A DNA stretch of 37,117 nucleotides, from positions 64,841-101,957 of the forward strand of contig CAJINV010000029.1 of NCBI GenBank assembly GCA_905178155.1, given 5' to 3'. Both the position numbers and the translations under genes were made by a program. Origin of the DNA: Amoebophrya sp. A120 (Eukaryota > Protista > Dinoflagellata). This document shows positions 1-36,568 of the stretch, in pieces (positions within the stretch are counted from its first letter, which is position 1; each line of letters starts with the position of its first letter). Below the pieces are notes generated by a model, which saw only the letters and a program-made list of their open reading frames with translations, was not told the DNA's origin and did not search any database.

Positions 1-394
1 TGAAGATGTATTGCATCGACACGATGCTACTGCGACTCGAAGAGTCGCATGAAGGAAAAGCTGTCTTGATGTTCCGCTCTGAAACAGAAGGAATCAATCC
101 AAATCAACAACAATGAATCCATTTTGAACAGCGATCCACAGAGCGAGTTTTGACTGTGGCAAGGAGGTGAAACATTTTGAATACCGATGGCACGACGGAT
201 CTTCTCTTGAACCCTTCTGGATTTCTTTGTGTGAGATAGCACCTATTTTCGATGTCTCGTAAGGAAAGATACGACTTGAATCATGTCAAAGAAGAAGAGA
301 AAGAAGCCAAATCCCGATGCCATTCGGTACACCTCCGGTCCTGTTCGCTCGCTCGATATCGATCACGCTGATCGTATGCCGACCCAGTTCTTCA
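1..394 (+). repeat. 5' LTR (394 bp)
   Basis: TGAAGA...TCTTCA inverted ends; direct repeat of 6977-7374. Confidence 0.96.
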
Positions 395-406
395 AGTTAT
401 GAGCCC
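395..406 (+). other. Primer binding site, copia-type (internal tRNAi-Met fragment)
   Basis: AGTTATGAGCCC directly after the 5' LTR resembles the GGTTATG(G/A)GCCC PBS of copia/Ty5-type elements primed by a half tRNAi-Met. Confidence 0.75.
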
Positions 407-637
407 GTTCACGTTGAACAGCAGAACGCAGAACTGCAGGACGGAGACCGAACCGCCAAACGCCAAGGCGGAGCGCATCAACGGGAAAACAGGCTATATT
501 TGTTGTTTTTAATGTGTGAATCGAAATTGAAAATCGCAAATTTGATAATGAAAAATCATGGAATCACGATCGGAATCGCGATGCAATAATGCGATGATCG
601 ATCTGAATCGCGATGGTGTTGGGGGAAGAGTAATGCG

Positions 638-691
638 ATCCGTGTACCACTTTGGAGCGGAATCGCAATCCGTGTACCACTTTGGAGCGGA
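638..691 (+). repeat. Tandem duplication in retroelement 5' leader (30-bp period)
   Basis: ATCCGTGTACCACTTTGGAGCGGA at 638-661 and 668-691. Confidence 0.9.
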
Positions 692-721
692 CCCCACATC
701 ATAAATACGGCTCAAGTTACC

Positions 722-6593: not shown

Positions 6594-6968
6594 TTCCACG
6601 ACCAAAAGAACTACAGGAGTACGCAAGCAAGCACTTCTGAACGCGACCTATCTACGATCTTCTATTACGAAAAGACGATGGATTTTTAACGGCAAGATCT
6701 TTCTAAACGTCAAGCACACCTTCGCAGAACGGAAATCGCAAATCGCATCTACGATCGCAATACCATCTACATTCAGTATCCAAATACACTGAAAAATAAC
6801 CAAAAACAGTACGACAGGGCCGCCCCGGCACAGCCGCACCACCACCACAAGGACCGACACAGACGGCACCACCGACACCAGCACGGCACAGCCGTTACCG
6901 GGCAAGCTTTCCTTCGACAAGCTACATCGACCTCTTCATCAAGTTCTCAACGATTTCGCTCGCCGAAC

Positions 6969-6976
6969 GGGGGGGA
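6969..6976 (+). other. Polypurine tract
   Basis: GGGGGGGA immediately before the 3' LTR. Confidence 0.85.
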
Positions 6977-7374
6977 TGAAGATGTATTGCATCGACACGA
7001 TGCTACTGCGACTCGAAGAGTCGCATGAAGGAAAAGCTGTCTTGATGTTCCGCTCTGAAACAGAAGGAATCAATCCAAATCAACAACAATGAATCCATTT
7101 TGAACAGCGATCCACAGAGCGAGTTTTGACTGTGGCAAGGAGGTGAAACATACATTTTGAATACCGATGGCACGACGGATCTTCTCTTGAACCCTTCTGG
7201 ATTTCTTTGTGTGAAATAGCACCTATTTTCGATGTTTCGTAAGGAAAAATACGACTTGAATCATGTCAAAGAAGAAGAGAAAGAAGCCAAATCCCGATGC
7301 CATTCGGTACACCTCCGGTCCTGTTCGCTCGCTCGATATCGATCACGCTGATCGTATGCCGACCCAGTTCTTCA
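6977..7374 (+). repeat. 3' LTR (398 bp)
   Basis: Differs from the 5' LTR by 3 substitutions and a 4-bp insertion. Confidence 0.96.
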
Positions 7375-7725: not shown

Positions 7726-7977
7726 TATCAAGTGTAAAAATGTCTGGGTCTGGAAGAATGCAAGTTTGTCATGCGTGTCTGGCATGACTCGAGATATCTG
7801 TGTTGCATAGGCACGAAAAGGCCCTCTTGCCTGTCATGCAAAAACGCAGTTTGTCATGCGGAATACGGAAGACATGGGAGCCAAAAAATTTGTCATGCAT
7901 AGCTGCGTATTGCAGTCCGTCTACCATTCACTTTTAGCATCACAAGTTTCCAGACCCAGACATTTTTGCATTTGATA
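7726..7977. mobile_element. Introner/MITE family A, probably in 3' UTR
   Basis: TIR TATCAAGTGTAAAAATGTCTGGGTCTGGAA...TTCCAGACCCAGACATTTTTGCATTTGATA; perfect TSD TATCC. Confidence 0.92.
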
Positions 7978-8038
7978 TATCCGTTACGCACCCCAAAGCT
8001 GCGAAGGAAAGCCGGCGCCAAGATCGCGTTCGGGATCA

Positions 8039-11000
8039 TCACCCTCGGTCCTGCCCCTGCTCTTTATGCATTGCAAAAGTATCGTACTAGTATAAATTGC
8101 ATTACAAATTTTGGCAAGAAGGGAAGTAGAATTTGTAATGCTGTTTTGCCTTAGGAATAACACTTGTCATGCATATTTGTAATTAGTACGAGTCCGATAC
8201 TTTTGCACAGGATACTCTTGCGGAAAAATCGATCTCGCACTGGAGATCGGTGGCCGCGGCAGCGGTTTCGGTCTTCTCGTCTGGTGGGGTGCAGCTGGGG
8301 TTACTTGATGTCCCTGCTCTCGGGCAAGAACTAGATTGCTGTCTGCCTGCTGTTATGGGTTGCAACTAATATCAGGGTCTGTATAGAAGAACTAAATTGG
8401 GTCGGGATGAAATCAGAGATTTGTCTTATTTCTTGAGAGGGTTATTCATGCCTAGCCTGCATGAGAAATACCTTCTCCAAGACACAAAAATTACTGACCC
8501 TGCAACACAGATAGATTTTTTCCTCTTCCAGAATCTGAGCACAGACCCAGATCGGCATTACAATCGATAGGTGTCGACCGGACACAGATGGCTCGGCGGG
8601 TTGATCCTGAAGTCGTCCCAGTCCCGACACCGCTTCGGCAAGGGCGCCCGGCGTTGCCGTTGCCTTGGCAGAGTGTGCACGGAGGGGTTCCAGTTTCGTA
8701 TTTGGTGCACCAGCAGCCCGTCCTGCGTTTCCTGCCTGCACCGCGGATCCAGGGCGGCTTGGTCTAGCGCTACTTGTGGAGACTGGCGGAGTTGTTGTTT
8801 CAGCACGACCCGGTGGGGATCTAATCTCGCTGTGGAGTATGTTCCCTGATTTTTCGCAGCCAGAGGATGAACAAGCACCACTTGATGTTAGCGCCGCTGC
8901 TGCCGCGACCGCTTGCTGCGAGCGCCCTTGGTGGACGGGTAGAACCCCACCACTACGCGGCGGCCCGAGCGGGTTCGGTGGGGGGAACGGCGGTGAACTC
9001 ACGCTGGCGGGTGGCTCGGAGGGGAATTTATTTCGAGTTCCACCAGTTGGTGAAGATATAGCACTGGTCGTTCCCTGAGTTGTTTTTAATGCGGCTACGG
9101 GCTCGGAGGAAAATTTGTGCTGAGACAGCAGCGGCCCGACAGGAGGGCTACTGACGTATGATTCCGTTAATATTTTTGCGGCGGAAGTAGAACTGGTGCA
9201 GCCTCCAACGGCGTCGCCCGTGACCACGGAGGGGGATGATCCTGGATTCAGATTATTGTTTCCTTCGCCGAAGAAATGATCCGATAAAAATTGTCCTCGC
9301 AAAACGGAGCTGCCGCGAACCTTGTCGAGCGAAGGCGGGCTTGGTGGAGGTAGTGGTACAGGTGGTACTCCCTCTGGTCCTCCGCTGAGCGCACCGAAGT
9401 TGGAGTACATGTGGTCTCTGCAACTCATGGACCCACCTCCCCACGTTGTCGACGACTTCGAGCTATCCTGTACAAAAGTATCGTACTCGTAGTAATTATC
9501 GCAGCCATGCATTACAAATCTCCTTCTTAACCTAAATCCGCGTAACAAATTCCATTTTTCATGCTGAGGGATTTTGTCATGTTCTACTCGAAGTACGATG
9601 CTTTTTCATTCCATACGAGCTTTGCCTCCCGCTCGTGCAGCTGGTGCTCAGCATCTCTCCCTGTTTATCCCACAGAAAAAAGCTGGCAGGGCAGATTTGT
9701 AATGCAAAGATAAATACACAGAAAGATCTGTCGTGGGCGGCCTCATAGCATGCCATTTAGGATATGAAATACAATTTTTTTTGTCTATTTATTTTTGCAA
9801 TACAAATATGACCTGCCAGGTTTTTTCTGTGTGATACTGTTGCAGGCTCTGCAGCATGAGCTTCCCTGCGGCTGTGTTCATACTGCTTCTGGAAACGCTC
9901 CTGGCGCGCGCGTATCAAATGCAAAAGCGTCTGGAGGGTCTGGAAGGTTCTAAACTTGCAATGCTGTCTCTGGATTCTGAAAAAATTTCTATTGTATGAC
10001 CAGCAAGACGAGAACTCCAGTTTGTGCTACGCGGAGAGGGCATTTCTCATGCGGCAGAGGCATCATAAAGTCCTCGAAAAATCTGTGATGCTAGGGCATG
10101 CATCACAGACATCATGGGTCATTCAAAATATGCATGACAAACCTGGTAATCTTCCAGACCCAGACACTTTTGCATTTGGTAGCGCGGAATCACAAGCAGC
10201 CCGGCTTGACGAGGATCCACCGCCGCCGGGCAAGAGGACCCCCGGGTATCCTGAGTAAAAACGTACCCACGCCAGAGTTGTCATGCAGATTTGCCATGAC
10301 AGGAACACTTGTGATGCGCAACCCCATGACAGGCATTTTCAATCGTGTTTGGGAACTTGTAACGCTGTAAACAGGGTCAGCAGATCGATTTGTGATGCGG
10401 CTTTCCTTGCTAACTTGCACTACCTTACGGACTGAAGCTTGTCATGCGTGACTCACAAAACTCCTAGGTTTGTGTTGCAAAATCCCCATCCCAACTCTGG
10501 TGTGGGTACGTTTTTACTCAGGATACCGGGTAGTTGTAAATTACTGCTGTTGTTCGAGTTCGTGTTCCCCGAGCCTAACTTCAACCCCGGCAGGTCAGTA
10601 TTTCTTGGTAGCGAAAATAAAGCCGGCAACGCGTCGACGGTAGCGCGCTTGTGGTGCAGAAGCTCGCGCTGCATGTCCTCCCTGACTTCCGTGAAAGCGC
10701 TCGTGACCGAGGGGGATGAGCAAGGACGAGCATCCAGCTGTGTCACCGTGCTGTACTTACTTGTAGCAGAGGTCGGGCGGGACCGAGATGCGGGTAGTCG
10801 TAGTTCTCCACTTATTTCTCGGATGGTTCTTGCCCCCTCTCCCGGGAACGGAACATGTAGTTCTTGATCATGCTGTCCATCAAAATAATCTTCACGTTCA
10901 CCTTCGTTGCTCAATACCCGAACCAGGAAGGCGGTACTAGAGTCGTCCGTGGGAAATAACGAATCGCTTCTGTCGACGACGACGCCGGCGCCAACATGAT

Positions 11001-13378
11001 GACCGACATCTACTTCGATCCCTAAGACACGTGAAGATTCTTCGCTGGCTGCTTGCTTTGTTGTGTGCAACGTCGCTACAGTTTGTGTCGCTTTCTCGTC
11101 GAGAATGCAGGAGGACAAAACGCTTGTGGCGCAGCTGAGCAGGCACTGGTTCTTGCTTGTGTCGGAGAATCCGGGCTCTACCTTCATGCTAGACAACGAA
11201 GATTGCTCTGATGCGCCGGACCCGGAGCCCGCGGACTGCTGCCTATGGATTGCAAAAGTATCGTGCTAATACTAATTGCATGAGCAGAACTGTGCTCAGA
11301 ATAAGAAATGGAATCTGTAATGCGGATGCGCCTTTTTACAAAAGAAATTTGTAATGCTTGGACTGCGATTATAACTTGTACTATACTTTTGCAGTGCATA
11401 CTGCGTCTGCTCCGATAATTGCCGTCCGTTTCGTTCCAAGTCGCCATCGGGGAAAGTATCTTCTTCGTCTTCATGGAGAAGAGGGAGAAACGAATCCGTC
11501 TGGGCATGGTAGGGGGAAGAACGATATGAAATGCAAAAATGTCTGGGTCTGAAAGGTTGGAACTTGATGTAATGCTAGCTTTCCATACCTAGAAAATCTG
11601 TATTGCATAACCAACAAAAGTCGCAGCCTCTTTTGTCATGTAAAAACGCAGTTTCTCATGCGGATTGCCTACTTACGAGAAAGCGTTTTGGGAAGTTGTC
11701 ATGCCGGACTGCATTCGGAAGTGTTTTCATCATGCACATTTTAGCATCACAAGTTTCCAGACCCAGACACTTTTGGATTTGATAAAAGATGTGCAACAGC
11801 ATTCGCCGACGAGGAGGAGGCGGAGGATCCGTGCCACGACGATATTACAACAGACGTTTTTTTCGACGACTCGGACTGCATTTCCACAGCTGCTGCTCCT
11901 CCCCCTCGGTACTCCAACGATCCTAGCGTAGCTGTTCCCGAGGAGGAAAGCAGTGCCCGCCGGTTCCCGGCCAATTTTGCTTTCTCGTAATCCTCCGACC
12001 GGGTTCTTGCGACTTGGGAAGGAGGAGAGTTGTGTTGTGCGACATGATGTTCTTGTGAGTAGAGATCAGCACCTGATTGAAAAAATTCTGGCTCCCTTGG
12101 TTCCACCGTCGGTCCCCCTCCATTCCTTCTTTTCCTTCTGGAGATGTCGAATTCAGGCAGAAGACCATCCGCGATGGCGCCAGAGGTGGTCGTAGCCGCT
12201 TGCTCCTGCGCAAGAACACCAGGGGAGGAGGCGTAGTTCCTCGACGCAGGAGAAGTAGGTGCAACAGCGGCGGGTGCAGTTTTGTTGCTCCTGCAAGCGG
12301 CGGACAAAACGAACAAGTCCATTTTTTCCAATTCATCGCCTGCCGATTTACCAGTAATACAAGAACCCTCTTCAAGAACGTATTGCTGGTGCCCTTGCAG
12401 TGTTGATGAAGCGACGTGCTGCCGCGGTGGCGTTCCCATGACCGCCCGTGCGCCGGCGAATGACAGCAAGGGGGATGCAGTGGAGCTGGCTGCGCCGGTC
12501 TCATTTGCAGGTGGAACAAAAATGCAACTCCTCGGGGATGCGGATGATGAAGACGGGACAACAACTCTATTGGAGTCGTTCATTTTCGGTTTCCCAGAAC
12601 AACTACTAGTGCCACAGATCGGGCTTGCAGTTGGTGTTTTCGTTTGCTTGTCCAACGAGGGTCCTGCTGCTCCCATGGCGGCCGCGGGTTGTAGTCCTAG
12701 TTGTCCTTCTCGAAGCTCATGCAGGTCTTGCAGCTCGTCTGCGCTTCTTGACCACGTGCAGTGTGAGTTAGAATTGCAACTACCTGCGGAAGATTTTGGT
12801 TTACTAGGCTGAGAATTCGACGGTGAGGTGAATGATGCAGCTGTCAATGCGAAACCATATGCGCCGAGGGTTGCACCACCTCCCAAAGCAGAGACCGCAG
12901 AGCTGCGTCCAGCAGATGACTTTCGCGTAGAAGTGGTGCCGAACAACCCGAAGAGATTGCTGACCACGAGGATCATGGCTGCACGCACCAGAGACGAGGT
13001 ACTTCTCTTGAGCTTGATGCTCCAAAAAAAACCACGCCGTGGAGGGATACTTTTGACGGTGCGTCGAGGTAGAATTTCTGTGCCAGGAGCGTCGTGGTCC
13101 CCGCGGTTGTAGTTTCTCGGTGATATCTTCATGAAGGATGTGCTGCACCGGCGCAGCAGCTGGCCGTGCCGGTAAAAAAATTGTCGCCCCTCAGGAGTTG
13201 TACTAGTAGAGCCGCGACTTCTGCAGAAGCCGTTTTGGCTTTCGACAGAAGCAATTTTGTTAGCATTTATTTCGTCCCATGAGCAGCATGACGAAGACGA
13301 CGAGTAGAAACCCGACCGGCCTGCTCGGGAAACCGATCCTGGCCGGAGGACCGCCTGTCCTGGCCGGATCTTCGCCAT
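8039..13378 (-). CDS. Multi-exon gene, S/G/P-rich hypothetical protein (~1210 aa), 8 introner introns
   Basis: Exons 13378-11785, 11519-11401, 11238-10526, 10241-10182, 9907-9837, 9660-9616, 9458-8570, 8348-8215, 8059-8039. 7 of 8 junctions join in frame after removing element plus one TSD; the 10247-10525 junction is 1 nt off. Hydrophobic segment near aa 128-146. Confidence 0.72.
8065..8214. mobile_element. Introner family B
   Basis: TIR TATGCATTGCAAAAGTATCG...CGATACTTTTGCACAGGATA; perfect TSD CTCTT. Confidence 0.9.
8354..8569. mobile_element. Degenerate introner, family A-like
   Basis: TAT...ATA ends, GGGTCTG/CAGACCC inverted core, TSD GCTGT/GGTGT; removal restores frame. Confidence 0.75.
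9464..9615. mobile_element. Introner family B (opposite orientation to 8065-8214)
   Basis: TATCCTGTACAAAAGTATCGTACT...AGTACGATGCTTTTTCATTCCATA; perfect TSD CGAGC; frame restored. Confidence 0.9.
9666..9836. mobile_element. Introner family E
   Basis: TIR TATCCCACAGAAAAAAGCTGGCAGG/CCTGCCAGGTTTTTTCTGTGTGATA; perfect TSD CTGTT; frame restored. Confidence 0.9.
9913..10181. mobile_element. Introner family A
   Basis: Family A TIRs (right end ...TTTGGTA); perfect TSD GCGCG; frame restored. Confidence 0.9.
10247..10525. mobile_element. Introner family D
   Basis: 34-bp TIR TATCCTGAGTAAAAACGTACCCACGCCAGAGTTG with 1 mismatch; perfect TSD CCGGG. Confidence 0.93.
11244..11400. mobile_element. Introner family B
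   Basis: Family B TIRs; TSD CTGCC/CTGCG; frame restored. Confidence 0.87.
11525..11784. mobile_element. Introner family A
   Basis: Family A TIRs; TSD AACGA/AAAGA; frame restored. Confidence 0.88.
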
Positions 13379-15834
13379 CTTGTGTTTTTGATCAGAAAAA
13401 GATTAATGTTTCGCTTGGATCTTCGAGGAAAAGAAAGAAGAAACAAAAACTTGCGCCGCGACCGTGTGCCAACGAATGAATGAAGTTGAAGGAAGAAAGA
13501 GTGGACGCCCGAGGACCATACTTGGTTTTTTTATTTACTTCGCGAGATGCGAGGAGCGAAAGGAGCGGGAACAACAACAGCAGCACGAGAACCACTCTCG
13601 TGCTTGAGTAACAATCAATCTCCATGGGCCGTTCGTGGCGCCATCGCGTCGCGTGGTTCGTCATGCGAGCAACAGATAATATCTGCAGGGAAGCTAGTAC
13701 TGTGTGCGCGCCGCGGCTACGGCTGAAGTAGAAGACGCAAGGGAGCGGCGCCAGGAAGCGCATGCGCCAGTGCGCGCAGACACGCGCCAAGCCGCGCGGT
13801 GTTAGGCACGGGAACTATCGCCCACGCAGCCAGAGAGCGAGCCTAGGGCGCGCCCTGGTGGGGTGTACGTATGTGCCTCAGGCGCCGCGGCAGTTGCTGA
13901 AGCGAGCAACCGACTGAAGCTGCCAGGGCGACAGCTGGGGAAGCTAACAGATAAGCGGGGGCCAGGCAGCGGCTGGGCCCCGGCGCCTTTGCTTCTTCCC
14001 CTTTCGTGGGCGGCGCTGCCCGGAGATGATAAAAAGCAAGAGCAAGGGGCGGGGGAGGGGCTGGCGGCCGGCGTATTCCAGGACGGTACCCGTGGAACGT
14101 ACACCGGAGCCGGCCCGGCCCGGCGTCCGGGTCGCGGATTTTTCGCCGACCCGAGTGCCTGCCGCCCGCCCGCCCGGCCGCCCCGCAGTGGGGCCAACGG
14201 CTGTCGCGGCCGTCGCGAACCGGCACGCCACGGACCGCAAACAGGGCGGAGGGGCGCGCAACATCCCCGGCCGGGCCCCCCGGTGTGAGGAAGCACGCTG
14301 CGGCAAAGGAGTGAAGCCGCGCGGGACTCCCGCGAGGAGTGAGGCCGCCCACCCATCACGCCGGCCCGCCCCGCTGCCCGGTCTCTTCCCTTGCGGCGGT
14401 GCCTCTGCGTGCTCTTCAAAAGTGACGGCCCCACCTGAACACGAAGCACCCCGAGCAGCTTCAAACGCCACCCCCGCCACTGCGTCACCCCTGTGCCTTG
14501 CTACTATCTGCGGAGGCGAATTCCTGCAGCTTTCGCGCGCTCTCTCGAAGTGCGGCGCAAGCCTGTTGCGTTGGCGTGTGGGTGGTCGCACTCGCTCCAC
14601 TTGGGGGCGTCGCGGCTCGACTCTTCGGCGCCGGCCAAAATAGTCACCCCCGAAAACCAGGCCGCATCGCCTTCCCGCGAAGATATTTCCCAGAAACGCG
14701 GCGCGCGCCTCTCCCCTGGCCGGCAGATCGTAGCGGGCGCCTGGAGCTCGCGCGGCAAAAAAGCAACGGCGCCAGCCACCGCAGACACTGCGCCACAGCT
14801 CTGCCACCCCGGCCGAGGCTGCGGGAAGCGCCAGGCCCTCCCGTAAAATCGGGCGCCTACCAATGCTCTCCGTGTATGCCTCTGCCCTTCACACGTCGGC
14901 GGGCGAGACAATTGTGGAAGGGTCGTAATGCGATCGTTCGTACGCATGAGGATCGATCCTCCGCTTCATACCGTGATGGATCATTGCGAACACAAAGCAA
15001 TAAAGCTGTCGACGATGTTGTTGTGAAACAGAAATCCAACGATCACCATCTCGCTGCACTTTTGCTACCGTTCTTCAGTCATTTTATAAATATGATTTTT
15101 CTTCGAAAAAAGTGTCAGTTTAATAAATCTGTTGTGATAAAACGTATACAAATTTTCATTCGCATTATCATGTTTCTGTGCTTGTTGCCAGACCGTTACA
15201 TTTTTCTGTCGCCATTGCGAGCAGTATTCTGTGCGACACTTCTTGTGTGGTCCGGTGAGATTACTTGGTGTATGATATTTTCTTTTTCTTTAATACATGT
15301 ACAGATCGAAGATGCCTTCTGCACCTCCTGCGTCAAAGTGTTATCTGCGGCGTGCGTGTACTGCACTCCATTCTACTATTTGTTCGTTTGCCAAAAAAAA
15401 CAAAAATAGTTGCTGCTCTGCAGCATCTTTTCAATCTTCCATGGGCATTTATGTGAAAGTCTAAATTCGGAAACCTATCCAAATATGAATTGAAAGCCCA
15501 GGCACATGTGTTGTAGTCGAAGAAAATAACGTTCATTCTTTTGCAACGCCGCTGGCGAAACAGGGGCATTGCATGCCTTTTGTCGTGTACTCTCAAAAAT
15601 AAGCATGATCTACAACTAGTTCGTAGTAGAAACAAGGTAAAATAATCTTAGCTATTCATGGGCCCATTAGCATTAAATGTTCTTGCAATTGTTCAACTAT
15701 AAGCTGCTGGCTCTTGACTTTGACAAAAAAAAATGTTAGATCTTGTGCATTGCAGCCTTCTGTGATACCGTAAAAAACAAAAATTGAAAGTGTAAAAAAA
15801 TTTTTCACGCAGCGCTTTATTCTCAACCAATATA

Positions 15835-18800
15835 CTATTTCAAAACACCTCCCCCCGTTCCAGGCTTCTTGTTCTTTCCCTTTGCAGATGCTTTTGCTTT
15901 CGCTTTGGCCCTGTTTGCACTTTTTCCTTCCGCCTTCGCACGCACGCCTTTGGCTTTTGTTTTCTTTTCCAATGTCGGACTTTTTGCGCCGGCGACGTTT
16001 TCCTCTTTTGATGTTGTACTTGCTACGTTGATTTTGTCCTCTTCGTCCCGAGCGGTTGTGTTGGAGGTTTTGTCGTGTGCATTGCGGAACAAGACGCTAG
16101 AGATTCCATTTTTGAAACCGCTCCAGAAACCAGTACTGGCACTTGCAGCTTCATCCTGACTGGTAGTTTGATTCGCGGCGTTTGATGCAGGAGCAGAGGA
16201 TGATGACAGTGGCTCTTGATGCCCAGAAGAAGTACAGTTCTCGCCTTCCTTGCTGCTGCAGTTGCTGTCTACTTTTTTCTTTGATGATGAACTTTTCTTT
16301 TTCAACATCTTCACGTGCTTTTCAACCCGACTCCGCTTTTCTCGCAGCGACGACTTCTTCTTTTCCGGAGAAATAACTTTCTTGCTGTCACTACGATCCT
16401 ATCAAATGCAAATATGTCTGGGTCTAGAAAAAGGGAGCTTGTGATGCTGGTCTTACAATCCAAGAAAATCTGTATTGCATGGCCAGCAAACGCGCAGCGT
16501 TCTTTGTCACGCAGAAACGGAGTTTGTCATGCGTGTTCTTACGTATGAGACAGCGTTGCAAGAACTTGTCATGCTTGGCTGCAGTCGAAAGCGTTGCAGT
16601 CATCCGCACTTCAGCATCACAAGTGTCCAGATCCAAGCATATTTGCATTTAATAGATCCCCGCGTGGCTGTTGTTGTTTCGCCTCCCGCTTCTTCACGGC
16701 GGTGGTACTTTTCTTTCTTCCTGGTTTTACAGCAGCAGCTTTGGCTTTCCGTTTAGCGCCGTTGTCTGAGTTCTTTTTACTTTTCCCGCTTGAACTTCCT
16801 CCTTGATGCGGGGGACAAGGCTTTGGAGGTGCTGCATTGGGCTTGATCTTCCCGACGGCCCGGCCAGCAGTTCCTTTATTCGCGGCTCCTGCTGTCGATG
16901 CGCTTGTTGCACTACTGCCGCTGCTCTGCAGCCTTGAAGATGTTGTAGTTGCGTCGTTTCTAGTACTCAGGAGGTGCGGCAGAGCTGCTGCGCGGGAGGA
17001 CGAGGAGCCCGCGGAGCCAGTACACGAGGAGGACGAAGTAGAGCTGCCCGGAGGTTTGGCAGATGCAGTTTGGACTTCTTATCCTATCCAGTGCAAATCA
17101 AACGACGTGACCGACAACCCAGACCGAAAAAGCATGAAGTTTTTCTTTCTAGTACACAAATCGCCAACGTTTGGCTATCATTTCGCATGACAAGATTGGC
17201 CGCGCAGTATACCAAAGTAGTGACGTTAGCTGGTGCAGCCGCATCACAAATCGATCACCTTACGATCATCCCGATAACAGCATGACAAAGACAAAGTCGA
17301 AATACGTAAATACTATTAGAAATTAAATCCTCAGTCAACCTCATGTTGTGGAAACGCATGAGAAACAAGCAACCCGCGCATGCAAATTCGCATGACAGCA
17401 ACTCCGGTGTGCGAACGTCGTGTTTACACGGGATATGATCTTCCCCAGCTTCATCATCCGTGGAACTCGGGATTTCCTCGCCCCTGCGGTTCACCTTACG
17501 CTTCGTCAAATCATAGGCGTCCTTATTCCAGGGCTCCGCTGGATACAGCCAGTAGTCTATCCGCTGCAATAAACATGTCTGGGTGGTCCTCTGGAGGAGT
17601 CCGCGCGTTTGTCTTCATGCAAGAAATCCTCCCGGCGAAAGATGGGCTGAGATCCACGCAAACGAGCTCAAGCTCAAGCACTACTTACAGGTTTTATTCC
17701 GAAGGTTTCTTGATGCCCACTCTGCATGAGAAATTTGCTAGTATCTGTGCAACAAAAAATAATAGTGGGCACACGCTGCACGGGCAGCATTTATTGGCAC
17801 TGACGCAGATACAGTGTTTTGTCTCGTCTGCTCAATATTTAGCATCAGAAGTTGCATCAAACTGCTTCGCCTTCCCGACCCAGATGAAATTTTTTTCGTT
17901 TTTTTTCATTTGATATAGTTGACGAGACTCCCATCACCGTCCTTGCGTCTGACGAATTTTTTCCGGATCTCCTCAGAGCTCTTGCGCCACTCCCGCCAAA
18001 TATCCAAGAAAAAAACGGCGTTAGCATAGAAGGGGTCTATGGGTGGCAGCATGACAAACTTGATGTTCCGCATGACAACGAAAAATCACGACTGGCAGCG
18101 TGACAAACTTGAATAGGACGTCACGACTGGGTGTAGTATGGCAAGCGCAACAAACTGTGTAGCCTCCGGTGCATTACTTACAGACTTCCACTTGCCTAGC
18201 CTTTTCCTTGCATACCAAAGACGCTGGTTGTCAAGCACCTCCGGGGGCACGGGTGGAAAGGCCTGCACGCCAGATGAGGTGAGGCAAATGCAGTCCCAGC
18301 CGACTTCGATTCTTGCCCTCCGTTCATTGTCAAGCGCCTTTTGGATGGTGCTCTCCTTCGGGTTCGGGATGCCTGGTGTTTATCAAGTGTAAAAATGTCT
18401 GGGTCTGGAGGAGTGCCAGACTTGTCATGCAGGTTTTCCATGACCCATGAGGTCTGGTCTGGCATGTAGGACATAGCATTACAGATTCTGTGAGGGTTCT
18501 ATCATGTCTATCCTGCATGAGAAACTGCCTCTCGATTACGTCAAAAGTGGACAGCTTTTGGTAATGATGCAACACTGTTTTTTGCATGCTTCAGATTTAG
18601 CATGAGAAGTTGCATTCTTCCAGACCGAGACACTTTCACATTTGATAGTGTTCTGCGGATGACGTTTTTCTCCGGGGTTATGCAGGAAAAGAAAATAAAA
18701 AGCTGTGTCGATAATATAAGTCTGTGACCATGCAGTAGAGCATGCAACGCAGTTCTTACAATTCTGTCATGCGGATTTACATTCGAGCCCCTTTTCATGC

Positions 18801-19518
18801 TCGATCATTTCACAGTTGATACTAGCAAGTGGCAAGTTTTTTCTGTCATGCGAAACAAATTTGTGATGCTGCACCCCGTCACAAGGAGTTAGAGTTACAC
18901 CAACGCAGTTCTTTTTTTTGATCTTGCATAGGTGCCTCGTCCCATTCAATGCCAGACTCTCGTGTGTACGACGAGAGAAATTGTATGAGATTCTCAAACG
19001 TTACGCGCTCAACTGCTACATAAATTTGTGAAGGAAGAACAAGGGACAACAACAGGAAAAGGGCCAACATTGAAACCTTCGCATCACAAATTTGGCGCAG
19101 ATTTAGACGCTCTCTCGCCCTACTTCGAGAATTTATCAATGAAAAGTATCTACTTGTTCTTGATCGTCTGGTGGCTTACGAGGATAAGTTTGCATTTACA
19201 AATTCATGTAAGAGTTGAGAAGATAACATCTGTCAAATCCATAACCTCCTCCATCGTCTTCTGGTTGCCCTGCCTGGCGTATCCACGGGAAGATGAAAAC
19301 GAGCATTGCACATCTCGTACTATTTTTTAATTGCAATCATCCATGACAGAAGATCCTGCCAGCAACACAAATTCAATTTTTCATGCTAGGCATTGAGTTT
19401 GTGTTTGAATTTGTCATGCAAAAATTTGCGATACTCTTGTACAGTTGGATATGGTGAGAAGGTAGGGTCGCGTTGGTTTTTCCTCGAAGTACTCCGTCTT
19501 CAACTTGGGAATCCGCAT
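15835..19518 (-). CDS. Multi-exon gene, hypothetical protein with K/S-rich C-terminus (~510 aa from ATG 19518; may start further upstream)
   Basis: Exons 19518-19452, 19274-19226, 18978-18931, 18673-18648, 18375-18215, 17995-17916, 17552-17436, 17079-16655, 16394-15835 sum to 1533 nt with no internal stop. Confidence 0.72.
16400..16654. mobile_element. Introner family A
   Basis: Family A TIRs; perfect TSD GATCC; frame restored. Confidence 0.9.
17085..17435. mobile_element. Degenerate introner
   Basis: TATCCAGTGCAAA/TTTACACGGGATA inverted ends; TSD decayed (TATCC/TGATC); frame restored. Confidence 0.7.
17558..17915. mobile_element. Degenerate introner, family A-like
   Basis: TAT...TTTGATA ends, TCTGGGT/ACCCAGA core, TSD TAGTC/TAGTT; frame restored. 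Confidence 0.78.
18001..18214. mobile_element. Introner family F
   Basis: TATCCAAGAAAA...TTTTCCTTGCATA; perfect TSD CCAAA; frame restored. Confidence 0.82.
18381..18647. mobile_element. Introner family A
   Basis: Family A TIRs; perfect TSD GTGTT; frame restored. Confidence 0.92.
18679..18930. mobile_element. Degenerate introner
   Basis: TATGCAGG...CTTGCATA ends; TSD decayed (GGGGT/GGTGC); frame restored. Confidence 0.68.
18984..19225. mobile_element. Degenerate introner, family C-like
   Basis: TATGAGATTCTCAAACGTTAC...GTAAGAGTTGAGAAGATA; right boundary partly chosen by frame. Confidence 0.6.
19280..19451. mobile_element. Degenerate introner, family B-like
   Basis: TATCCA...TGGATA ends; TSD TGGCG/TGGTG; frame restored. 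Confidence 0.72.
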
Positions 19519-19523
19519 TTCCT

Positions 19524-19741
19524 TATGGATTGTAAAAGTACCGCGCCAACAGTAATTGCAAGAGCAAAAAATTGAAATTTTCCCCACTGCAAGTGGACTT
19601 TGTAATTGCGCATGACAAAGTTACAAGTTCATGAGAAATGGAATTCGTTTTTCGTTTATGCGGGATTACAACGTCAAGCAAAAGATTTACATGACTGCAA
19701 TAGCAGTTACTATGAGTGTCAGGATACTTTTATTTTGCATA
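19524..19741. mobile_element. Degenerate introner, family B-like
   Basis: TATGGATTGTAAAAGTA...TACTTTTATTTTGCATA; TSD decayed. Confidence 0.65.
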
Positions 19742-20043
19742 GTTGTGGAGATGCGCCACCTTCTTTTCCTCGTCAGATTTAGGGCTCGCAGCAGGAGGAT
19801 CAACTGCCTCACCCGACTTTTCGTGCCATTATGTGGGGCGTAACAAATGTGTAGGCCCGAGCTGAATTCTTTGTGATGCGAGTCGTATAGAGTGACAGCA
19901 AGATCTTGCTGTCAGGGAATGCGGACGGTCGGACAGAACAGGCAATCGCATCAGGACAGAAAAGAGACAGCCCCAGGGGCAAAGCTTTGAAGTCGGAGGC
20001 AGCAGGCGGGGAAAAAAGGACAGAGCAACAAAAGAAAACAAAA

Positions 20044-20130
20044 CGCAGCGGAGGAGGAATCGAACCCCTGGGCGTCACCGCCCCCCGCGGGTTGAAGCCG
20101 CGTCCGAGCACCAGCCCGGCTCACCACTGC
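20044..20130 (-). tRNA. tRNA-Sec (TCA)
   Basis: 87 nt GCAGTGGTG...CTCCGCTGCG; 9-bp acceptor and 4-bp T stem, 6-bp D stem with 4-nt loop (CCGGGC TGGT GCTCGG), anticodon loop CTTCAAC, long variable arm, G discriminator, T-run terminator. Confidence 0.93.
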
Positions 20131-20168
20131 CTGGAAGGCGGTTGCGGCAGTTGGGTGAAACGCTAGAC

Positions 20169-31254: not shown

Positions 31255-34200
31255 CTACGACCACTTTCCACCAAAACCAGAGCTTCCCACCTTCCGCTGC
31301 GGATTACTCTCCGTGCTAGAAGATTCACCAGACTCCGGCGATCGCTTAATCTTAGAAGGCAGAGGCGTTGTCTGGGTTTCGGTTTCGCTAGCTGACAGGG
31401 TCGTCGTGGTGGTGGTCTCCGGGGAAAATTTTAAACCGTTGGTCAAATGATTTTTTTCCTGTGGAGGTGTCCCGTTATTTCTACTGGTGAAGGTGGAACT
31501 ACTGCTGCTACCACACTTAGCCGATTGTTCGTCCGCCTTCAAACGACTAATTTCGACCGCTGCGTTCCACTCTTTCAGACAGAGCTCCGCCTGCGTTTCC
31601 ACGGCGACTAAAACCTTCGCAGCATGTTCTTGCGAGGACTGCTGCTGGTGGGGTGTATTTTTTTTCGCCTGGTCTTGTTTCAGCGCCCTCGTGGGGGTCG
31701 AGGTAGTCCCGACGTGCTGCAGTGTGTCAAACCCCGGCGGCGTCGAAGCAGGAAAAATAACTTGGGGGATTCTATCCATTGCAAATACGTTCGGGTCTGG
31801 AGGAATGCAAAGTTTGTCATGCTTCACAGAGATGTTGATGTTTGTTGTCGAATGCACCCAAAAGCATCACAACTTGCGCGAAAGCTTTCAAATGCTTTAC
31901 TCTTCGGCATGAGCAGTTCGCCTCTCGTGTGGAAAGGAATGAGCAGCATTTGCCGTTTATGCAACACAGATTTTTGCGCGATTCAGATTCAGCATGAAGA
32001 CAGGTTGCCATTTTTTTCAGACCCAGACACATTTGCAATCCATATATTCCAACCAGCGACAAAACCTCCGTTGTGCGGTTACAAAGCTCCGAACCGGGGG
32101 CAACGTAGAGGAGGTAGTTGATCGTGCTCGTTTCTGTTTTATTTTGTTCGGTAACGCCGAGAAAGTTGCGGAGGATGTTTGTTCCTGTAGTAGTTGCTGT
32201 TGTAGCTCCTGCTGTTCCACCTTCCACCACGTTCATGAGAATGAACAATCCGAGGTTCTGTCTGTGTCGCGGTTTCAAAATCAGCAGTCTCTCCCTGGTA
32301 TACACGGCAAATGCGTCTGGGTCATCTGGAACAAGACGTGCACCAACTTGTCATGCTGTCTTTCAAATTGTTTTAGAAAAATCTGTATTGCACGAACAGC
32401 AACAGGACGCTTCCAGTTTATGCTACGTGGGATTTTCTCATCTTCAAAAGGGCCCTTGGAAGCAATCTGTGATGCTAGCGCATACATCAACGGCCATGCA
32501 AAATGTGCATGACAATAAAACGTGGTTGCAATTTTCACCTAGATCCAGGCAACAACATATTGGCATTTGATAACTGCCGGAAACGACGATGGTATCGGTC
32601 ACCGCAAACACGATGTTGCACACGACACATTTATGCACTACAAAAGTACTCTCGCAGTCGTAGTAAGTGGAGCTGGAATTGCAGGCACGCATATACAGAT
32701 CTTTCTCTTAAAGTTCAAACCGCATTGCAAGTTTACGACTATATCTCATGCTGTTGTGGAAATTCAAATTGATTCTCATTCGATTCCTACTACGTCCTAC
32801 GATACTCTTGCACAGGATACCACTCGACTGACCGCAACTTGCGAGACCAGATTCTTTTCAGCGACCGAATGTTCGTGGGGTTATTCGGCTTGGACGCTCC
32901 TGCACGAGATTCCTCAAAGGCGATGCACAGTGCTCCGTCTTGTTGTCGTGTTAAGAAGAAACTCGGGTGGAGGGAAGTTATTTGATGCTTCACCGTTTTG
33001 GTTTCTTGCGTGGGGATGTTATTTTTTGCTGGTTCATCTACTTGCTTGTTTATTTCCTGACTCATTTTTCCCTGCTCGTGGACGAAGTTCTGCTTCTGCC
33101 CTTCGACAAATATTTCGTGGCACTTCACGGTCATGCGGCTGGCCCAGGAACATTCGAAGGGGAGCAGGAGTGCCGCAAGGCTATCCTGTGCAAAACTATC
33201 GTACTCGTAGTAATCGCAGTCATGCATGACAAATTCCTTTTTCGAGCGATTTCAGCATGAGAAATTCCATTTGTCATGCTGAGCCAATTTGTATTGCAAT
33301 ACTACGAACACGATACTTATGCGATGCATAAAGGCCCCGCACCGAAGGTGTGGACGCCTTGCCGGTACGAAACAGCCGCTCCGGTATCCAGTCTGAAAAT
33401 ACTTATGTCTGGGTCCTCTCTTGATGAAACCTGTGATGCTGCATTTCGCATGAATGCAACAGTTTCAATGGCAGCCAGGCATGACAAGCTTTTGTTCGGA
33501 ACTCGCTTTCTGATACGTATAATACACGCATGACAAATTGCGTTTCTGCATCATAAGGAAAGCTACCCACTTGCTGCTGATGCAACACAAATTTGGCAGG
33601 AAAAATACAAAACGCGCATTACAAGTTCCACCATGATTCCAGATCAAGACACATTTACAATGCATATCCGCGTCGGCACGCAAATTGTCCTTTTCTGAAT
33701 TTGGGAATAGGTAGGACGTGTCGGACAAGAGGCTCTGCAGCAGCTGTTCTTGGGCGGGAAAGAACGGCATTTCCTTCTTGAGTGAAGAACAACCGGCACC
33801 TGCTCCTGGGCGAGCGAAATCTTCTCCGCGTCGCGGAATATTTCGTTGAAACTGGAAGAATATACGATGCAAAAGCATCGTACTAGTACAAATTCTTGCA
33901 TATACAAATTAGCCCAGCATTACAAATTAAATTTGTAATGCTGAGTTACCTTGACAAAGAGATTTCGATTTGTGATGCATAACTGCAATTACTACGAGTA
34001 CGATACTTTTGCACAGGATAAGGAACTTCCCGACCAGGGATGTCGCACGGGACAAAACTTCTTCGAAAGGAGTTGCGAACGGGCGGCGAAGATCAAAGGC
34101 GGTTGTCTTTATTTCGGGCACGGAGAGCAGTTTCAGCTCTTCTAGTGCGGTGGAGGCAGGGTACGGTTGCGGTGCCACGGCCGTTTCGCTGATTGCCACC

Positions 34201-36568
34201 TCGACCTCTCTTGGGGGGCGACTCCTGCGAGCGTCTGCGGGGAGGACCAGCACCATTTTTTCAATGTCCACCACCAGATGTTTATGCAGTGCAAAGGCAT
34301 CGTACTCGTAGCAAAAATTGCAGTTATGCATTACAAATCCCTTTCTTCAAGGCAAATCAGCATTACAAATTTAATTTGTAACGCTGGACCAGTTTGTATT
34401 GCAATTTATAGATACAACTAGTTCGATACTTTTGCAATTCATAGTGTGATGTGTTCGCGAGCAGATCGCGGGGGAAATCTCGTCTTTTATCCGTGACGTG
34501 TGCCGCAATTGGTACCTTCTCTGGTATGGGACTCGCAATTGTTACATGCTCAACTGTTACATGAATTTGTAATGCAAGAACGGCGAAAGTGAAAGGGACA
34601 AGATTGCGCCTTTTGCATTACAGATTTGGCACAGATTTCCATGCTGTTTAGCCCTTTGGATGCTTGTCATGCGAAGCAGCTTAATCGTGGCGATCTTGGT
34701 GGTAAATTTGCATGGCAAATCATGTAACAGTTGAGAATGTAACAGTTGAGAATGTAACAGTTGAGAACGCCATATCTGGAACATCCTTCTTCTGCTCGCG
34801 TTCAACGATGTATCTGCCAACCGCCTGCGCCAACGCGGTTTGCTGGCCCGAATTGGCCACATCTTCCTCACGAAGCCGGAAGAGAATATTCAGTTCATCT
34901 CCCCGTGGTCCACCGTAGCGAAACACTGCGCCAAGTTGCATGTTGTCCAGAGTCTCGCAGCGCCACTCTTCTTGCTTTATCGGGTCCATCTCTACTTTGT
35001 CGCGGCAGTTGCGATAATAGCGGGCTCTGAAAACTCGGTCCATCCAAGGGAGCGAATGGAAGCTGCTCTCCAAATCGCGCGGAACCTCGAAAGTCACCGC
35101 GATTCGTCGTGCTCCCTTGTTGTCCTTAAATATGGTGTAGGACTGCGGTGTGGCAAGGCTGTCGAGTCCCCTCCTGTTCCCGACATGTAGCCAGAGAAAC
35201 GGGCATCAAGAGCAAAAGTGTCTGGGTCTGGAAACTTGCAATGCTGTGTTGGGAATAGTAGAGAATGCTCTGTAATGCACAGCCAAGCATGAGAAATATC
35301 TGCGCTGCTTTGTGTTGCGCTTTTCGCATGAGAAACTGCGTTTTTCTTTTTGCATGACAGGCAGAAGGGTCTCTTCATAGACACGCATCACAAACTTTTT
35401 TAATTTTATCATGCCAGACAAGCATGACAAATGTCGCAATCCTCCAGACCCAGACATTTTTGCATTTGATAACGGGCTGTGCAAGAGCTGGGCCTTCTTC
35501 TCGCCATTCGTGATGATGTCTGCCGGCGTTAAACCAGGGGTATGCGTCGGCATCGCATGGTAGTATCAAATGCAAAAACGTCTGGGTCTGGAAGTGAATA
35601 AAAGACGTCTCACGCAGGTTCAACATGACACATGAGGTCTGGAATGCAGGATCTAGCATGACGCATTCTGTGAAATCTGTATCATGCCTATCCTGCATGA
35701 GAAACTCACTCCCAACTTGGTCAAACGTGGACCGCTTTTGCTAATCATGCAACAGAAATTCTTGCATGATCCAAAATTAGCATGACAAGCTGTATCCTTT
35801 CAGACCCAGACATATTTGCATTTGATAGGTAGATGAGTCGCCCGATCTCGTCCGGCACATTGGCCTCCAGCGGAGAATATCAAATGTAAAAATGTCTGGG
35901 TCTGGAAAAATGCAAGATTTGTGATGCAGGTTTTCCATGACCCATGAGGTCTGGAATGCGAGACCCAGCATGACAGATTTTTTGAGGTCTCTATCGTGCC
36001 TTTCCTGCATGAGAAACTCCCTCTCAACTTGGTCAAAAGCGGACAGCCTTTGGTACTCACGCAACACAGATTTTTGCATCGTTCAGATTTAGCATCACAA
36101 GTTCCAATCTTCCAGACTCAGACATTTTTACAATTGATAGAGAAGCACCGCTTTCCCTTTTTTTCTTCTCAAAGCAAGTCATCGCGGTTTTCACCAGTAG
36201 TATAACCTGCTCAGGTATTACAATCTCAAACGTTGCAATAGAGTCTGGAATTTGTGTTGCAAGAAGTGCATGATCTACCCTACTCCCACAGGATTGCGCA
36301 TGACAAGTTCTGGAGTCCCAATCCGCATTACAATCTGGCGAAATTTGTATTGCAGAAAGTGGAATGCTGTCGGAGTCTGTCATGCTCATCCTGCAATACA
36401 AAACCCAGACTCTATAGTAACGTTTGAGATTGTAACGTTTGAGCGGGTCATAAGTAGTGCCTTGAGATTCTTCTTCGCCTTCGCAGAATCGCCGGACTGC
36501 TGTTCCAGGCGGTCGAACACCTCTTGGAGGCTTCTCCCGTTGAGGGGATTCAACATGTTGTAAGCCAC
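31255..36568 (-). CDS. Multi-exon hypothetical protein (~820 aa; start uncertain), 12 introner introns
   Basis: Exons 36568-36453, 36195-36140, 35872-35828, 35558-35472, 35198-34775, 34519-34444, 34277-34021, 33855-33667, 33379-33331, 33176-32820, 32626-32573, 32293-32045, 31767-31255 sum to 2472 nt, all 12 junctions in frame with no internal stop. Confidence 0.8.
31773..32044. mobile_element. Introner family A
   Basis: Family A TIRs; TSD GATTC/TATTC; frame restored. Confidence 0.85.
32299..32572. mobile_element. Introner family A (diverged)
   Basis: TAT...TTTGATA ends; TSD CCTGG/ACTGC; frame restored. Confidence 0.78.
32632..32819. mobile_element. Introner family B (diverged)
   Basis: TATGCACTACAAAAGTA...TACTCTTGCACAGGATA; TSD ACATT/CCACT; frame restored. 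Confidence 0.8.
33182..33330. mobile_element. Introner family B
   Basis: Family B TIRs; perfect TSD AAGGC; frame restored. Confidence 0.9.
33385..33666. mobile_element. Introner family A (diverged)
   Basis: TAT...GCATA ends; TSD TCCGG/TCCGC; frame restored. Confidence 0.8.
33861..34020. mobile_element. Introner family B
   Basis: Family B TIRs; TSD AAGAA/AGGAA; frame restored. Confidence 0.87.
34283..34443. mobile_element. Introner family B
   Basis: Family B TIRs; TSD ATGTT/GTGTG; frame restored. Confidence 0.85.
34525..34774. mobile_element. Introner family C
   Basis: Similar to 24351-24587; perfect TSD TCTGG; frame restored. Confidence 0.92.
35204..35471. mobile_element. Introner family A
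   Basis: Family A TIRs (left end CATC); perfect TSD ACGGG; frame restored. Confidence 0.9.
35564..35827. mobile_element. Introner family A
   Basis: Family A TIRs; perfect TSD GGTAG; frame restored. Confidence 0.92.
35878..36139. mobile_element. Introner family A
   Basis: Family A TIRs; perfect TSD GAGAA; frame restored. Confidence 0.92.
36201..36452. mobile_element. Introner, family C-related
   Basis: Long imperfect TIR (TATAACCTGCTCA...TTACAATCTCAAACGTTGCAATAGAGTCTGG and its inverse); perfect TSD AGTAG; frame restored. Confidence 0.9.

What the first reader, a model, noticed from the sequence alone, without database searches (positions are those of the whole stretch)
7726..36452. Several families of TAT...ATA elements with 5-bp TSDs act as precisely removable non-canonical introns in every host gene
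Seen: about 35 elements of 150-360 bp from roughly six TIR families sit in four genes; 16 have perfect 5-bp direct repeats. Deleting element plus one repeat copy restores an open frame at 31 of 32 coding junctions (12 of 12 in the 31255-36568 gene). Most have no GT at the 5' end or AG at the 3' end. Known: IR/DR-bounded non-canonical introners are described in Amoebophrya, so the phenomenon has precedent, but I know of no established excision mechanism. Inference: one rule (TIR hairpin plus TSD, with shared TAT/ATA termini) defines removal across otherwise unrelated families.
Basis: partly seen in the sequence, partly recalled or inferred. Interest (0 to 1): 0.88.

Follow-up and report, generated by a model that had tools for sequence, protein, structure and literature searches.

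The report
Transposon introns cut at fixed offset
The genes of this marine parasite are riddled with small transposons already known to be removed from the messenger RNA without normal splice signals; here the cut falls one base before and four bases after the element wherever it can be placed, which likely means the cell's ordinary splicing machine reads the transposon ends as its signals.

Summary
The window is from Amoebophrya sp. A120, and these are the TAT-type introner elements of Farhat et al. 2021. I count 34 elements of 149-358 bp, 16 with perfect 5-bp duplications. Probable-RNA contigs lack element+5 nt at 25 of 25 elements in two genes (11 singly, 14 by block sums). A third gene (9 elements) had no RNA cover.

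Two things go beyond the text I read. (1) Imperfect duplications fix one register: intron = N-TAT...ATA-NNNN on the transcribed strand, in either element orientation. This puts U, A, U at +2 to +4, as in a spliceosomal 5' site lacking G+1. Four introns with decayed hairpins fit the same register.

Most likely mechanism: a modified spliceosome (about 0.6); lariats untested. The scan noted similar hairpin introns in other genomes.

The parts
8039..13378 (-). Host gene A, 8 coding elements; frame breaks at the 10247 element unless L+3 or L+6 is removed (then about 1215 aa)
   Evidence: no exon cover in X3/X5; no database protein found (weak)
15835..28806 (-). Host gene BC, 2508 aa, 13 short elements + one 2041-nt intron + one GT-AG intron
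   Evidence: identical to P0001 = GSA120T00025290001
31255..36556 (-). Host gene D, 819 aa, 12 elements
   Evidence: identical to P0002 = GSA120T00025291001
7726..7977 (.). Element, 252 bp, TSD 5/5, 3' of gene A stop
   Evidence: not RNA-tested
8065..8214 (.). Element, 150 bp, TSD 5/5
   Evidence: not RNA-tested
8354..8569 (.). Element, 216 bp, TSD 4/5
   Evidence: not RNA-tested
9464..9615 (.). Element, 152 bp, TSD 5/5
   Evidence: not RNA-tested
9666..9836 (.). Element, 171 bp, TSD 5/5
   Evidence: not RNA-tested
9913..10181 (.). Element, 269 bp, TSD 5/5, sense 5' end TAC
   Evidence: not RNA-tested
10247..10525 (.). Element, 279 bp, TSD 5/5; the one junction where L+5 breaks the frame
   Evidence: not RNA-tested
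11244..11400 (.). Element, 157 bp, TSD 4/5
   Evidence: not RNA-tested
11525..11784 (.). Element, 260 bp, TSD 4/5
   Evidence: not RNA-tested
16400..16654 (.). Element, 255 bp, TSD 5/5
   Evidence: joint skips 260
17085..17435 (.). Element, 351 bp, TSD 2/5; limits register to k 0-1
   Evidence: joint skips 356
17558..17915 (.). Element, 358 bp, TSD 4/5; no significant end duplex
   Evidence: joint skips 363; z 0.0
18001..18214 (.). Element, 214 bp, TSD 5/5
   Evidence: joint skips 219
18381..18647 (.). Element, 267 bp, TSD 5/5
   Evidence: joint skips 272
18679..18930 (.). Element, 252 bp, TSD 3/5; k 0-2
   Evidence: joint skips 257
18984..19243 (.). Element, 260 bp, TSD 2/5; k at most 1
   Evidence: joint skips 265
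19280..19451 (.). Element, 172 bp, TSD 4/5; k 0-3
   Evidence: joint skips 177
19524..19741 (.). Element, 218 bp, TSD 2/5; k 1-2
   Evidence: joint skips 223
19828..21868 (-). 2041-nt non-canonical intron, starts A-TAT (one base before TAT, unique placement), degenerate complementary ends, hosts four Pol III genes; 3' cut only 2 nt after the nearest ATA
   Evidence: X3 record joins 21869 to 19827, loose end in X3 and X5; end duplex z -3.6
20045..20130 (-). tRNA-Sec gene inside the 2041-nt intron
20592..20697 (-). U6 snRNA gene inside the 2041-nt intron, ACAGAGA box unchanged
21111..21183 (-). tRNA-Lys gene inside the 2041-nt intron
21314..21461 (-). SRP RNA gene (partial model match) inside the 2041-nt intron
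22201..22392 (.). Element, 192 bp, TSD 3/5; k at most 1
   Evidence: skip 197
24351..24587 (.). Element, 237 bp, TSD 4/5
   Evidence: block sum 515 with next element
24923..25190 (.). Element, 268 bp, TSD 4/5; reads GT-AG at the k=1 register
25985..26140 (.). Element, 156 bp, TSD 5/5
   Evidence: skip 161
26523..26661 (-). Canonical GT-AG intron, 139 nt, in the same transcript
   Evidence: skip 139
31773..32044 (.). Element, 272 bp, TSD 4/5; k at least 1
32299..32572 (.). Element, 274 bp, TSD 3/5; k 1-4 by protein; weak end duplex
32632..32819 (.). Element, 188 bp, TSD 3/5; k at least 1
33182..33330 (.). Element, 149 bp, TSD 5/5
   Evidence: block sum 1027
33385..33666 (.). Element, 282 bp, TSD 4/5; weak end duplex
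   Evidence: block sum 1027
33861..34020 (.). Element, 160 bp, TSD 4/5; k at most 1 by protein; opposite orientation to 34283
34283..34443 (.). Element, 161 bp, TSD 3/5
   Evidence: block sum 1027
34525..34774 (.). Element, 250 bp, TSD 5/5
   Evidence: block sum 1027
35204..35471 (.). Element, 268 bp, TSD 5/5, sense 3' end ATG
   Evidence: block sum 1066
35564..35827 (.). Element, 264 bp, TSD 5/5
   Evidence: block sum 1066
35878..36139 (.). Element, 262 bp, TSD 5/5; long hairpin, z -7.7
36201..36452 (.). Element, 252 bp, TSD 5/5
   Evidence: block sum 1066

Best explanation
These are the non-autonomous TAT...ATA transposon-derived introns of Amoebophrya A120, missing from probable-RNA contigs by exactly element plus five bases, with one cut position (one base before TAT, four after ATA) fitting every short element where it can be placed, and likely removed by a modified spliceosome. 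Step 1 (structure shown, enzyme inferred): a DDE-type transposase inserts the element and duplicates 5 bp. Step 2 (shown): the transcript loses N-TAT...ATA-NNNN; 1+4 equals the duplication, so the original coding sequence is restored in either element orientation. Step 3 (inferred): the paired ends and their terminal triplets stand in for U1 and AG recognition; U+2, A+3, U+4 supplied by the repeat are handed to an unchanged U6; G+1 and the 3' AG are no longer required; the 3' cut is set by distance from the terminal ATA. Step 4 (untested): branch site unknown, with the A at -7 a candidate. My odds: identity and RNA-level removal 0.95, fixed register as the general rule 0.85, spliceosomal chemistry 0.6.
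For: Removal: 9 of 9 joints in 16394-19743 skip L+5 in both X3 and X5; the other 16 short elements fit by adjacent pieces or block sums; X1 contigs cross elements unspliced with 0 differences. Register: 11 imperfect-repeat junctions read from contigs all allow k=1; three cap it at 1 (17085, 18984, 22201), three require at least 1 (19524, 31773, 32632); chance under a random register about 0.0008, or 0.005 for any common register. Only k=1 reproduces P0001 and P0002 with 0 differences. T+2, A+3, T+4 in 26 of 26 supported introns. In the paper's Table S4, 9 of 9 leading A120 non-canonical motifs have T at +2 and 9 of 9 A25 motifs start TT, whose repeats start TTA, so U+2 A+3 would be shared by two different element systems. 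In the yeast P complex U+2 pairs with U6 A51, while G+1 pairs with the 3' G, so both Gs could be relaxed together (inference). U6 here keeps ACAGAGA. A120 has nearly all spliceosomal proteins but no detected U1 snRNA or snRNP27; loss of SNRNP27K goes with +4 U preference in yeasts (abstract). A GT-AG intron shares the transcript. 4 of 25 introns lack a significant end duplex yet keep the terminal triplets.
Against: No lariat, branch point or knock-down data. TAT-N7-AAA is what a transposase binding site looks like, so its conservation need not reflect splicing. No drift towards GT-AG: 1 of 88 oriented elements in a second assembly, against 1 of 88 on the antisense control. No G-U over A-C excess on the sense strand (42 vs 39 in 88 elements, 15 vs 11 in the window), so selection on the RNA hairpin is not shown. 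The candidate branch A at -7 is changed in 2 of 147 oriented, RNA-untested elements, and U+4 in 4 of 147. The 2041-nt intron cuts 2 nt, not 4, after its nearest ATA, and 10247-10525 breaks the frame at L+5. X3 and X5 are RNA by guess, one study, contigs only; the two annotated proteins may rest on the same reads and are not independent. The paper's Fig. 3 legend calls the splice sites variable relative to the hairpin.
Confidence: 0.6

Rival explanations
1. A spliceosome-independent endonuclease plus ligase recognises the closed stem and cuts at a fixed 1-nt / 4-nt geometry, as proposed for euglenid nonconventional introns; T at +2 is only a by-product of the transposon end.
For: Orientation-independent removal; no consensus at +1 or -4 to -1; 21 of 25 introns form a significant end duplex; U1 snRNA undetected; euglenid introns have an offset stem and leave as circles without lariats (review).
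Against: 4 of 25 introns have weak or no end duplex yet are removed at L+5; no G-U asymmetry; the register coincides with the U+2 A+3 of spliceosomal donors in two strains with different repeats.
Confidence: 0.3
2. The gaps are artefacts of reverse-transcriptase template switching across hairpins flanked by direct repeats, and the genes are really disrupted or spliced otherwise.
For: Strong hairpins with flanking direct repeats are the classic substrate (own knowledge); only assembled cDNA-type contigs were seen.
Against: Junctions with only 1 base of microhomology are removed (17085, 19524); weak-hairpin introns are removed; 12 to 14 removals in a row give open frames of 819 and 2508 aa; one register fits.
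Confidence: 0.04
3. The elements are excised from DNA (programmed elimination as in ciliates) and X3/X5 show a rearranged genome rather than spliced RNA.
For: X3 and X5 are RNA by guess only; TA-bounded transposon remnants are removed from DNA in ciliates (own knowledge).
Against: X3/X5 also lack the GT-AG intron and have no cover at 29210-30751, where X1 has about 30-fold; X1 keeps the elements; asymmetric 1/4 register follows the transcribed strand.
Confidence: 0.03

Closest known systems
Introner elements of Amoebophrya sp. A120 (Farhat et al. 2021, PMC7789003)
   Same: Same organism; repeats start TAT, seven variable bases, then AAA; 3-5-nt direct repeats at the boundaries; non-canonical ends; RNA-supported. 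This is that system.
   Different: The text and legends I read call the splice sites variable or 1-5 nt from the repeat and report no dinucleotide signature; here one register and an invariant U+2 A+3 U+4 emerge. [quoted passage not shown] An intron hosting U6, tRNA and SRP genes is not mentioned in what I read.
Fritillaria borealis non-canonical introns (review PMC11282704 section 6; preprint 10.1101/2025.08.15.670264, abstract)
   Same: MITE-derived, TIR and TSD, non-GT/AG, removed by an adapted spliceosome.
   Different: Mostly AG-AC/AG-AT ends with a preferred target motif and U1 present; here +1 and the last four bases are free.
Euglenid nonconventional introns (PMC11282704 section 6)
   Same: Stem joining intron ends with an offset from the cut sites, TSD-like repeats, non-canonical ends.
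   Different: Stem core at +4 to +6 with -8 to -6 and purine/pyrimidine preference at junctions; here +2 to +4 with -7 to -5 and none; circles shown there, untested here.
TSD-co-opting introners of algae and Symbiodinium (Gozashti et al. 2022, PMC9860276, passages)
   Same: TIR/TSD transposons whose removal takes one TSD copy.
   Different: They carry or co-opt real splice dinucleotides; these do not.
IS3EU/GingerRoot and IS481EU DNA transposons (PMC10045372, passages)
   Same: TA..TA or TNT..AYA termini, short TIRs, integrase-like DDE group; Gozashti 2025 (PMC12130899, passages) reports A120 TIR introners with LTR-integrase-like ORFs.
   Different: TSD 6 bp (IS3EU) or about 4/15/25 bp (IS481EU) against 5 bp here; no transposase found.

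Membership tests
Amoebophrya A120 introner elements | Found in A120 | tested here: met
   Both reconstructed proteins are identical to proteins named Amoebophrya sp. A120
Amoebophrya A120 introner elements | Inverted repeat starting TAT, seven variable bases, at least three A | tested here: met
   Position counts in 26 window introns and 289 elements of a second assembly; definition
Amoebophrya A120 introner elements | 3-5-nt direct repeat over the exon/intron boundary | tested here: met
   16 of 34 perfect 5-bp in window; 231 of 289 perfect 5-bp, 1 for 4 bp, 0 for 6 bp, found without using the repeat
Amoebophrya A120 introner elements | Repeated families | tested here: met
   Pairwise similarity within window; 76-89% identical copies elsewhere
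Amoebophrya A120 introner elements | Removed from RNA with non-GT-AG ends | tested here: met
   25 of 25 short elements in genes BC and D; 9 in gene A untested
U2-type spliceosomal intron | GT at the 5' end | tested here: not met
   4 of 26
U2-type spliceosomal intron | AG at the 3' end | tested here: not met
   3 of 26; 5 of 88 vs 4 of 88 control
U2-type spliceosomal intron | U at +2 and purine at +3 | tested here: met
   26 of 26
U2-type spliceosomal intron | Lariat through a branch adenosine; dependence on U2/U6 | not testable with these tools
   No raw reads covered the genes; A at -7 in 26 of 26 but changed in 2 of 147 untested elements
Euglenid nonconventional intron | Stem at +4..+6 with -8..-6 and purine/pyrimidine junction consensus | tested here: not met
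   Stem starts +2 with -5; junction bases free (definition)
Euglenid nonconventional intron | Excised as full-length circles without lariat | not testable with these tools
   Needs RNA work
IS3EU/GingerRoot or IS481EU transposon | TA..TA or TNT..AYA termini | tested here: met
   TAT 282 of 289 left ends, ATA 282 of 289 right ends (detection favoured these ends); definition
IS3EU/GingerRoot or IS481EU transposon | TSD of 6 bp, or about 4/15/25 bp | tested here: not met
   5 bp; lengths 2-8 examined
IS3EU/GingerRoot or IS481EU transposon | Cognate DDE transposase | tested here: inconclusive
   One 2459-bp element carries an ORF with no Pfam match; only 409 kb of a second assembly examined

The most novel reading that the evidence does not exclude
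The A120 spliceosome reads transposon ends directly: the repeat's TAT supplies +2 to +4 of the donor to U6 without U1 or G+1, the mirror ATA sets the acceptor by counting four bases with no AG, and 1+4 matches the transposase's 5-bp duplication, so any insertion in either orientation is silent. The A25 TTA elements obey the same U+2 A+3 rule shifted by one base. One such element has swollen to 2 kb and encloses the U6 gene itself.
Probability: 0.45. Interest if true: 0.8.

Novelty: already known. Interest (0 to 1): 0.45.

Why it matters
The elements are published, but how they are removed is open. A single cut register turns that into direct tests: lariat junctions should start at the base before TAT, and T+2 mutants should fail while +1 and 3'-end mutants should not. 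It also gives a simple annotation rule for the tens of thousands of such introns in A120 and explains how a transposon can spread through coding sequence at little cost. If the spliceosome does this, it would be a natural case of splicing without G+1, AG or U1.

Tried and rejected
No whole genome was held for the window, so no genome-wide count in A120, and the contigs behind the second-assembly loci could not be extended. The run search listed no holder on record as RNA. One search's joint table was swamped by repeat copies; I used its piece table, of which 24 rows were shown. Gene A exons had no cover in X3/X5 and no database protein: untested. Drift towards GT-AG: none (88 of 289 elements could be oriented). 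G-U versus A-C test for an RNA hairpin: no signal. Polarity of terminal variants: too few (12 variants in 147 oriented of 325). Orthologues to test whether the 2041-nt intron fused two genes: only the protein itself was found. The 2041-nt intron's ends gave no blastn hit to other elements and only a weak profile hit at one end (E 0.041). No TIR match in viral contigs. Pfam: nothing for host exons (7 of 7), P0001 (one sub-threshold hit) or the L072 ORF; the Atlas gave no answer. P0003 is a repetitive moth protein and was rejected. Roy et al. 2023 was not held and not read.
Full report
1. Observation. Scans for paired ends with flanking repeats and the spliced lengths seen later gave 34 elements of 149-358 bp; 16 of 34 have perfect 5-bp repeats. 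A strict test finds 14 sites in the window and 0 in each of 50 shuffles. All host frames are on the minus strand. Removing element+5 nt keeps the frame at 32 of 33 coding junctions; 10247-10525 fails and needs L+3 or L+6.

2. Organism and prior art. An exon of the middle gene matched one protein, 2508 aa, named Amoebophrya sp. A120. The last gene matched an 819-aa protein of the same strain with the next gene number. Farhat et al. 2021 (PMC7789003; I read the abstract, sections 10, 11, 12, 16, search passages, supplement part 3 and the legends of Figs S19-S27; figures unseen) describe A120 introner elements whose repeats start TAT, seven variable bases, then at least three A, with 3-5-nt direct repeats. 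That is this system, so the elements are already known.

3. RNA evidence. Of 11 listed runs I laid 4. X1 contigs cross elements unspliced with no differences and cover the intergenic stretch 29210-30751. X3 and X5 (RNA by guess, one study) lack that stretch, lack the GT-AG intron at 26523-26661 and lack the elements. Nine joints between 16394 and 19743 each skip L+5 in both runs; 22201 and 25985 skip L+5 by adjacent pieces; the other 14 match in block sums of 515, 749, 1027 and 1066 nt. So 25 of 25 short elements in two genes are removed at L+5. Gene A (9 elements) had no cover.

4. The cut register. Let k be the number of upstream repeat bases taken into the intron. Imperfect repeats limit k. 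From contigs: at most 1 at 17085, 18984 and 22201; at least 1 at 19524, 31773 and 32632; five more allow 1. The chance that 11 junctions with random k all allow 1 is about 0.0008, or 0.005 for any shared value. Applying one k to whole genes, only k=1 gives 0 differences from P0001 and P0002, which adds 32299 (1-4) and 33861 (at most 1); these annotations may share reads with X3/X5. The intron is therefore N-TAT...ATA-NNNN. Across the 26 supported introns +2, +3, +4 are T, A, T in 26 of 26, -7 is A in 26 of 26, and +1 and -4 to -1 are free. Family members lie in both orientations and both are removed, e.g. 33861 against 34283.

5. A second assembly. A TIR pattern found 138 loci (409 kb) in contigs of JACKZZ01. 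Of 289 elements detected without using the flanks, 231 have a perfect 5-bp duplication, 1 a 4-bp and 0 a 6-bp one. In the 88 that could be oriented by open frame there is no excess of G+1 with AG (1 vs 1 on the antisense control), both orientations occur (15 vs 14 for the main family) and G-U pairs do not exceed A-C mismatches (42 vs 39). Terminal variants are too few to decide: U+2 unchanged in 147, A-7 changed in 2, U+4 in 4. None of these elements is RNA-tested.

6. The long intron. The 2041-nt intron starts one base before a TAT with unique placement, has complementary ends (z -3.6, 0 of 200 shuffles) and holds tRNA-Sec, U6, tRNA-Lys and SRP RNA genes on the sense strand. Its 3' cut lies 2 nt after the nearest ATA, an exception to the rule, though -7 and -5 are still A. 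Long family members with perfect duplications exist in the second assembly (631, 972, 2459 bp), so growth of one element is plausible; fusion of two genes by two element ends is not excluded. One paper search for such an arrangement listed 2 unrelated papers.

7. Mechanism. The register places U+2 A+3 U+4 where a spliceosomal donor has them. In the yeast P complex U+2 pairs with U6 A51 and G+1 pairs with the 3' G (10.1101/212811, passages), so joint loss of both Gs with U+2 kept is coherent (inference). The U6 here keeps its ACAGAGA box. The paper reports nearly all spliceosomal proteins, no U1 snRNA and no snRNP27, and loss of SNRNP27K goes with +4 U in yeasts (PMC10581693, abstract). Its Table S4 lists 9 leading A120 motifs, all with T at +2, and 9 for A25, all TT, each only 2-5% of introns; the text reports no signature. 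21 of 25 introns form a significant end duplex but 4 do not and still keep the terminal triplets, which points to the triplets as the working signal. Against: no lariat data, the conserved ends are also what a transposase needs, no hairpin asymmetry, and two exceptions. I give the spliceosome 0.6, a euglenid-like nuclease-ligase route 0.3, artefact or DNA excision under 0.1.

8. What is in print. Searches for Amoebophrya with introner or splicing terms listed 12, 6 and 12 papers. I read passages of PMC12130899, PMC9860276, PMC11453091 and PMC10045372, section 6 and passages of PMC11282704, and the abstract of 10.1101/2025.08.15.670264. None of these passages states a fixed register. Subscription papers, Roy et al. 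2023 (not held) and the unseen figures could. Ciliate DNA elimination and template-switching artefacts are recalled, not from a call.

9. Verdict. Real, RNA-supported and already known as a system; the fixed register, the U+2 A+3 U+4 reading and the U6-hosting intron are the additions. Interest 0.45.

Noticed in passing
window 20045-21461 (-): tRNA-Sec, U6, tRNA-Lys and SRP RNA genes cluster inside the 2041-nt intron of a protein gene, same strand.
   Followed up: partly
window about 20160-20200, 20720-20760, 21484-21520 (-): A shared element of about 30 bases lies just upstream of tRNA-Sec, U6 and SRP but not tRNA-Lys; likely an upstream Pol III promoter.
   Followed up: partly
window 1-7374 (+): Young Copia-like LTR retrotransposon: LTRs 391 of 394 identical plus a 4-nt indel, CCCH finger and weak integrase hits, two overlapping frames at about 4587-4615; no TAT...ATA element found inside it.
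   Followed up: partly
L072:476-2934: 2459-bp element with main-family TIRs and a perfect 5-bp duplication carries a 415-codon open frame with no Pfam match: cargo, nested insertion or unknown mobiliser.
   Followed up: partly
L046:3001-3972, L029:3315-3945, L042:3001-4031: Longer and nested members of the main family with perfect duplications.
   Followed up: no
window 10247-10525: Near-perfect TIR and perfect repeat, yet L+5 breaks the frame; a run of C beside it suggests an assembly error, or the L+3 cut seen in the long intron.
   Followed up: partly
window 13800-14900 and 29100-30550: G+C-rich stretches (66-68%) upstream of genes A and BC, without cover in the probable-RNA contigs; promoter-like or repeat, unexplained.
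   Followed up: no
inside most elements: A short internal motif recurs many times in both directions across families (weak profile hits); possibly transposase binding sites or small hairpins.
   Followed up: no
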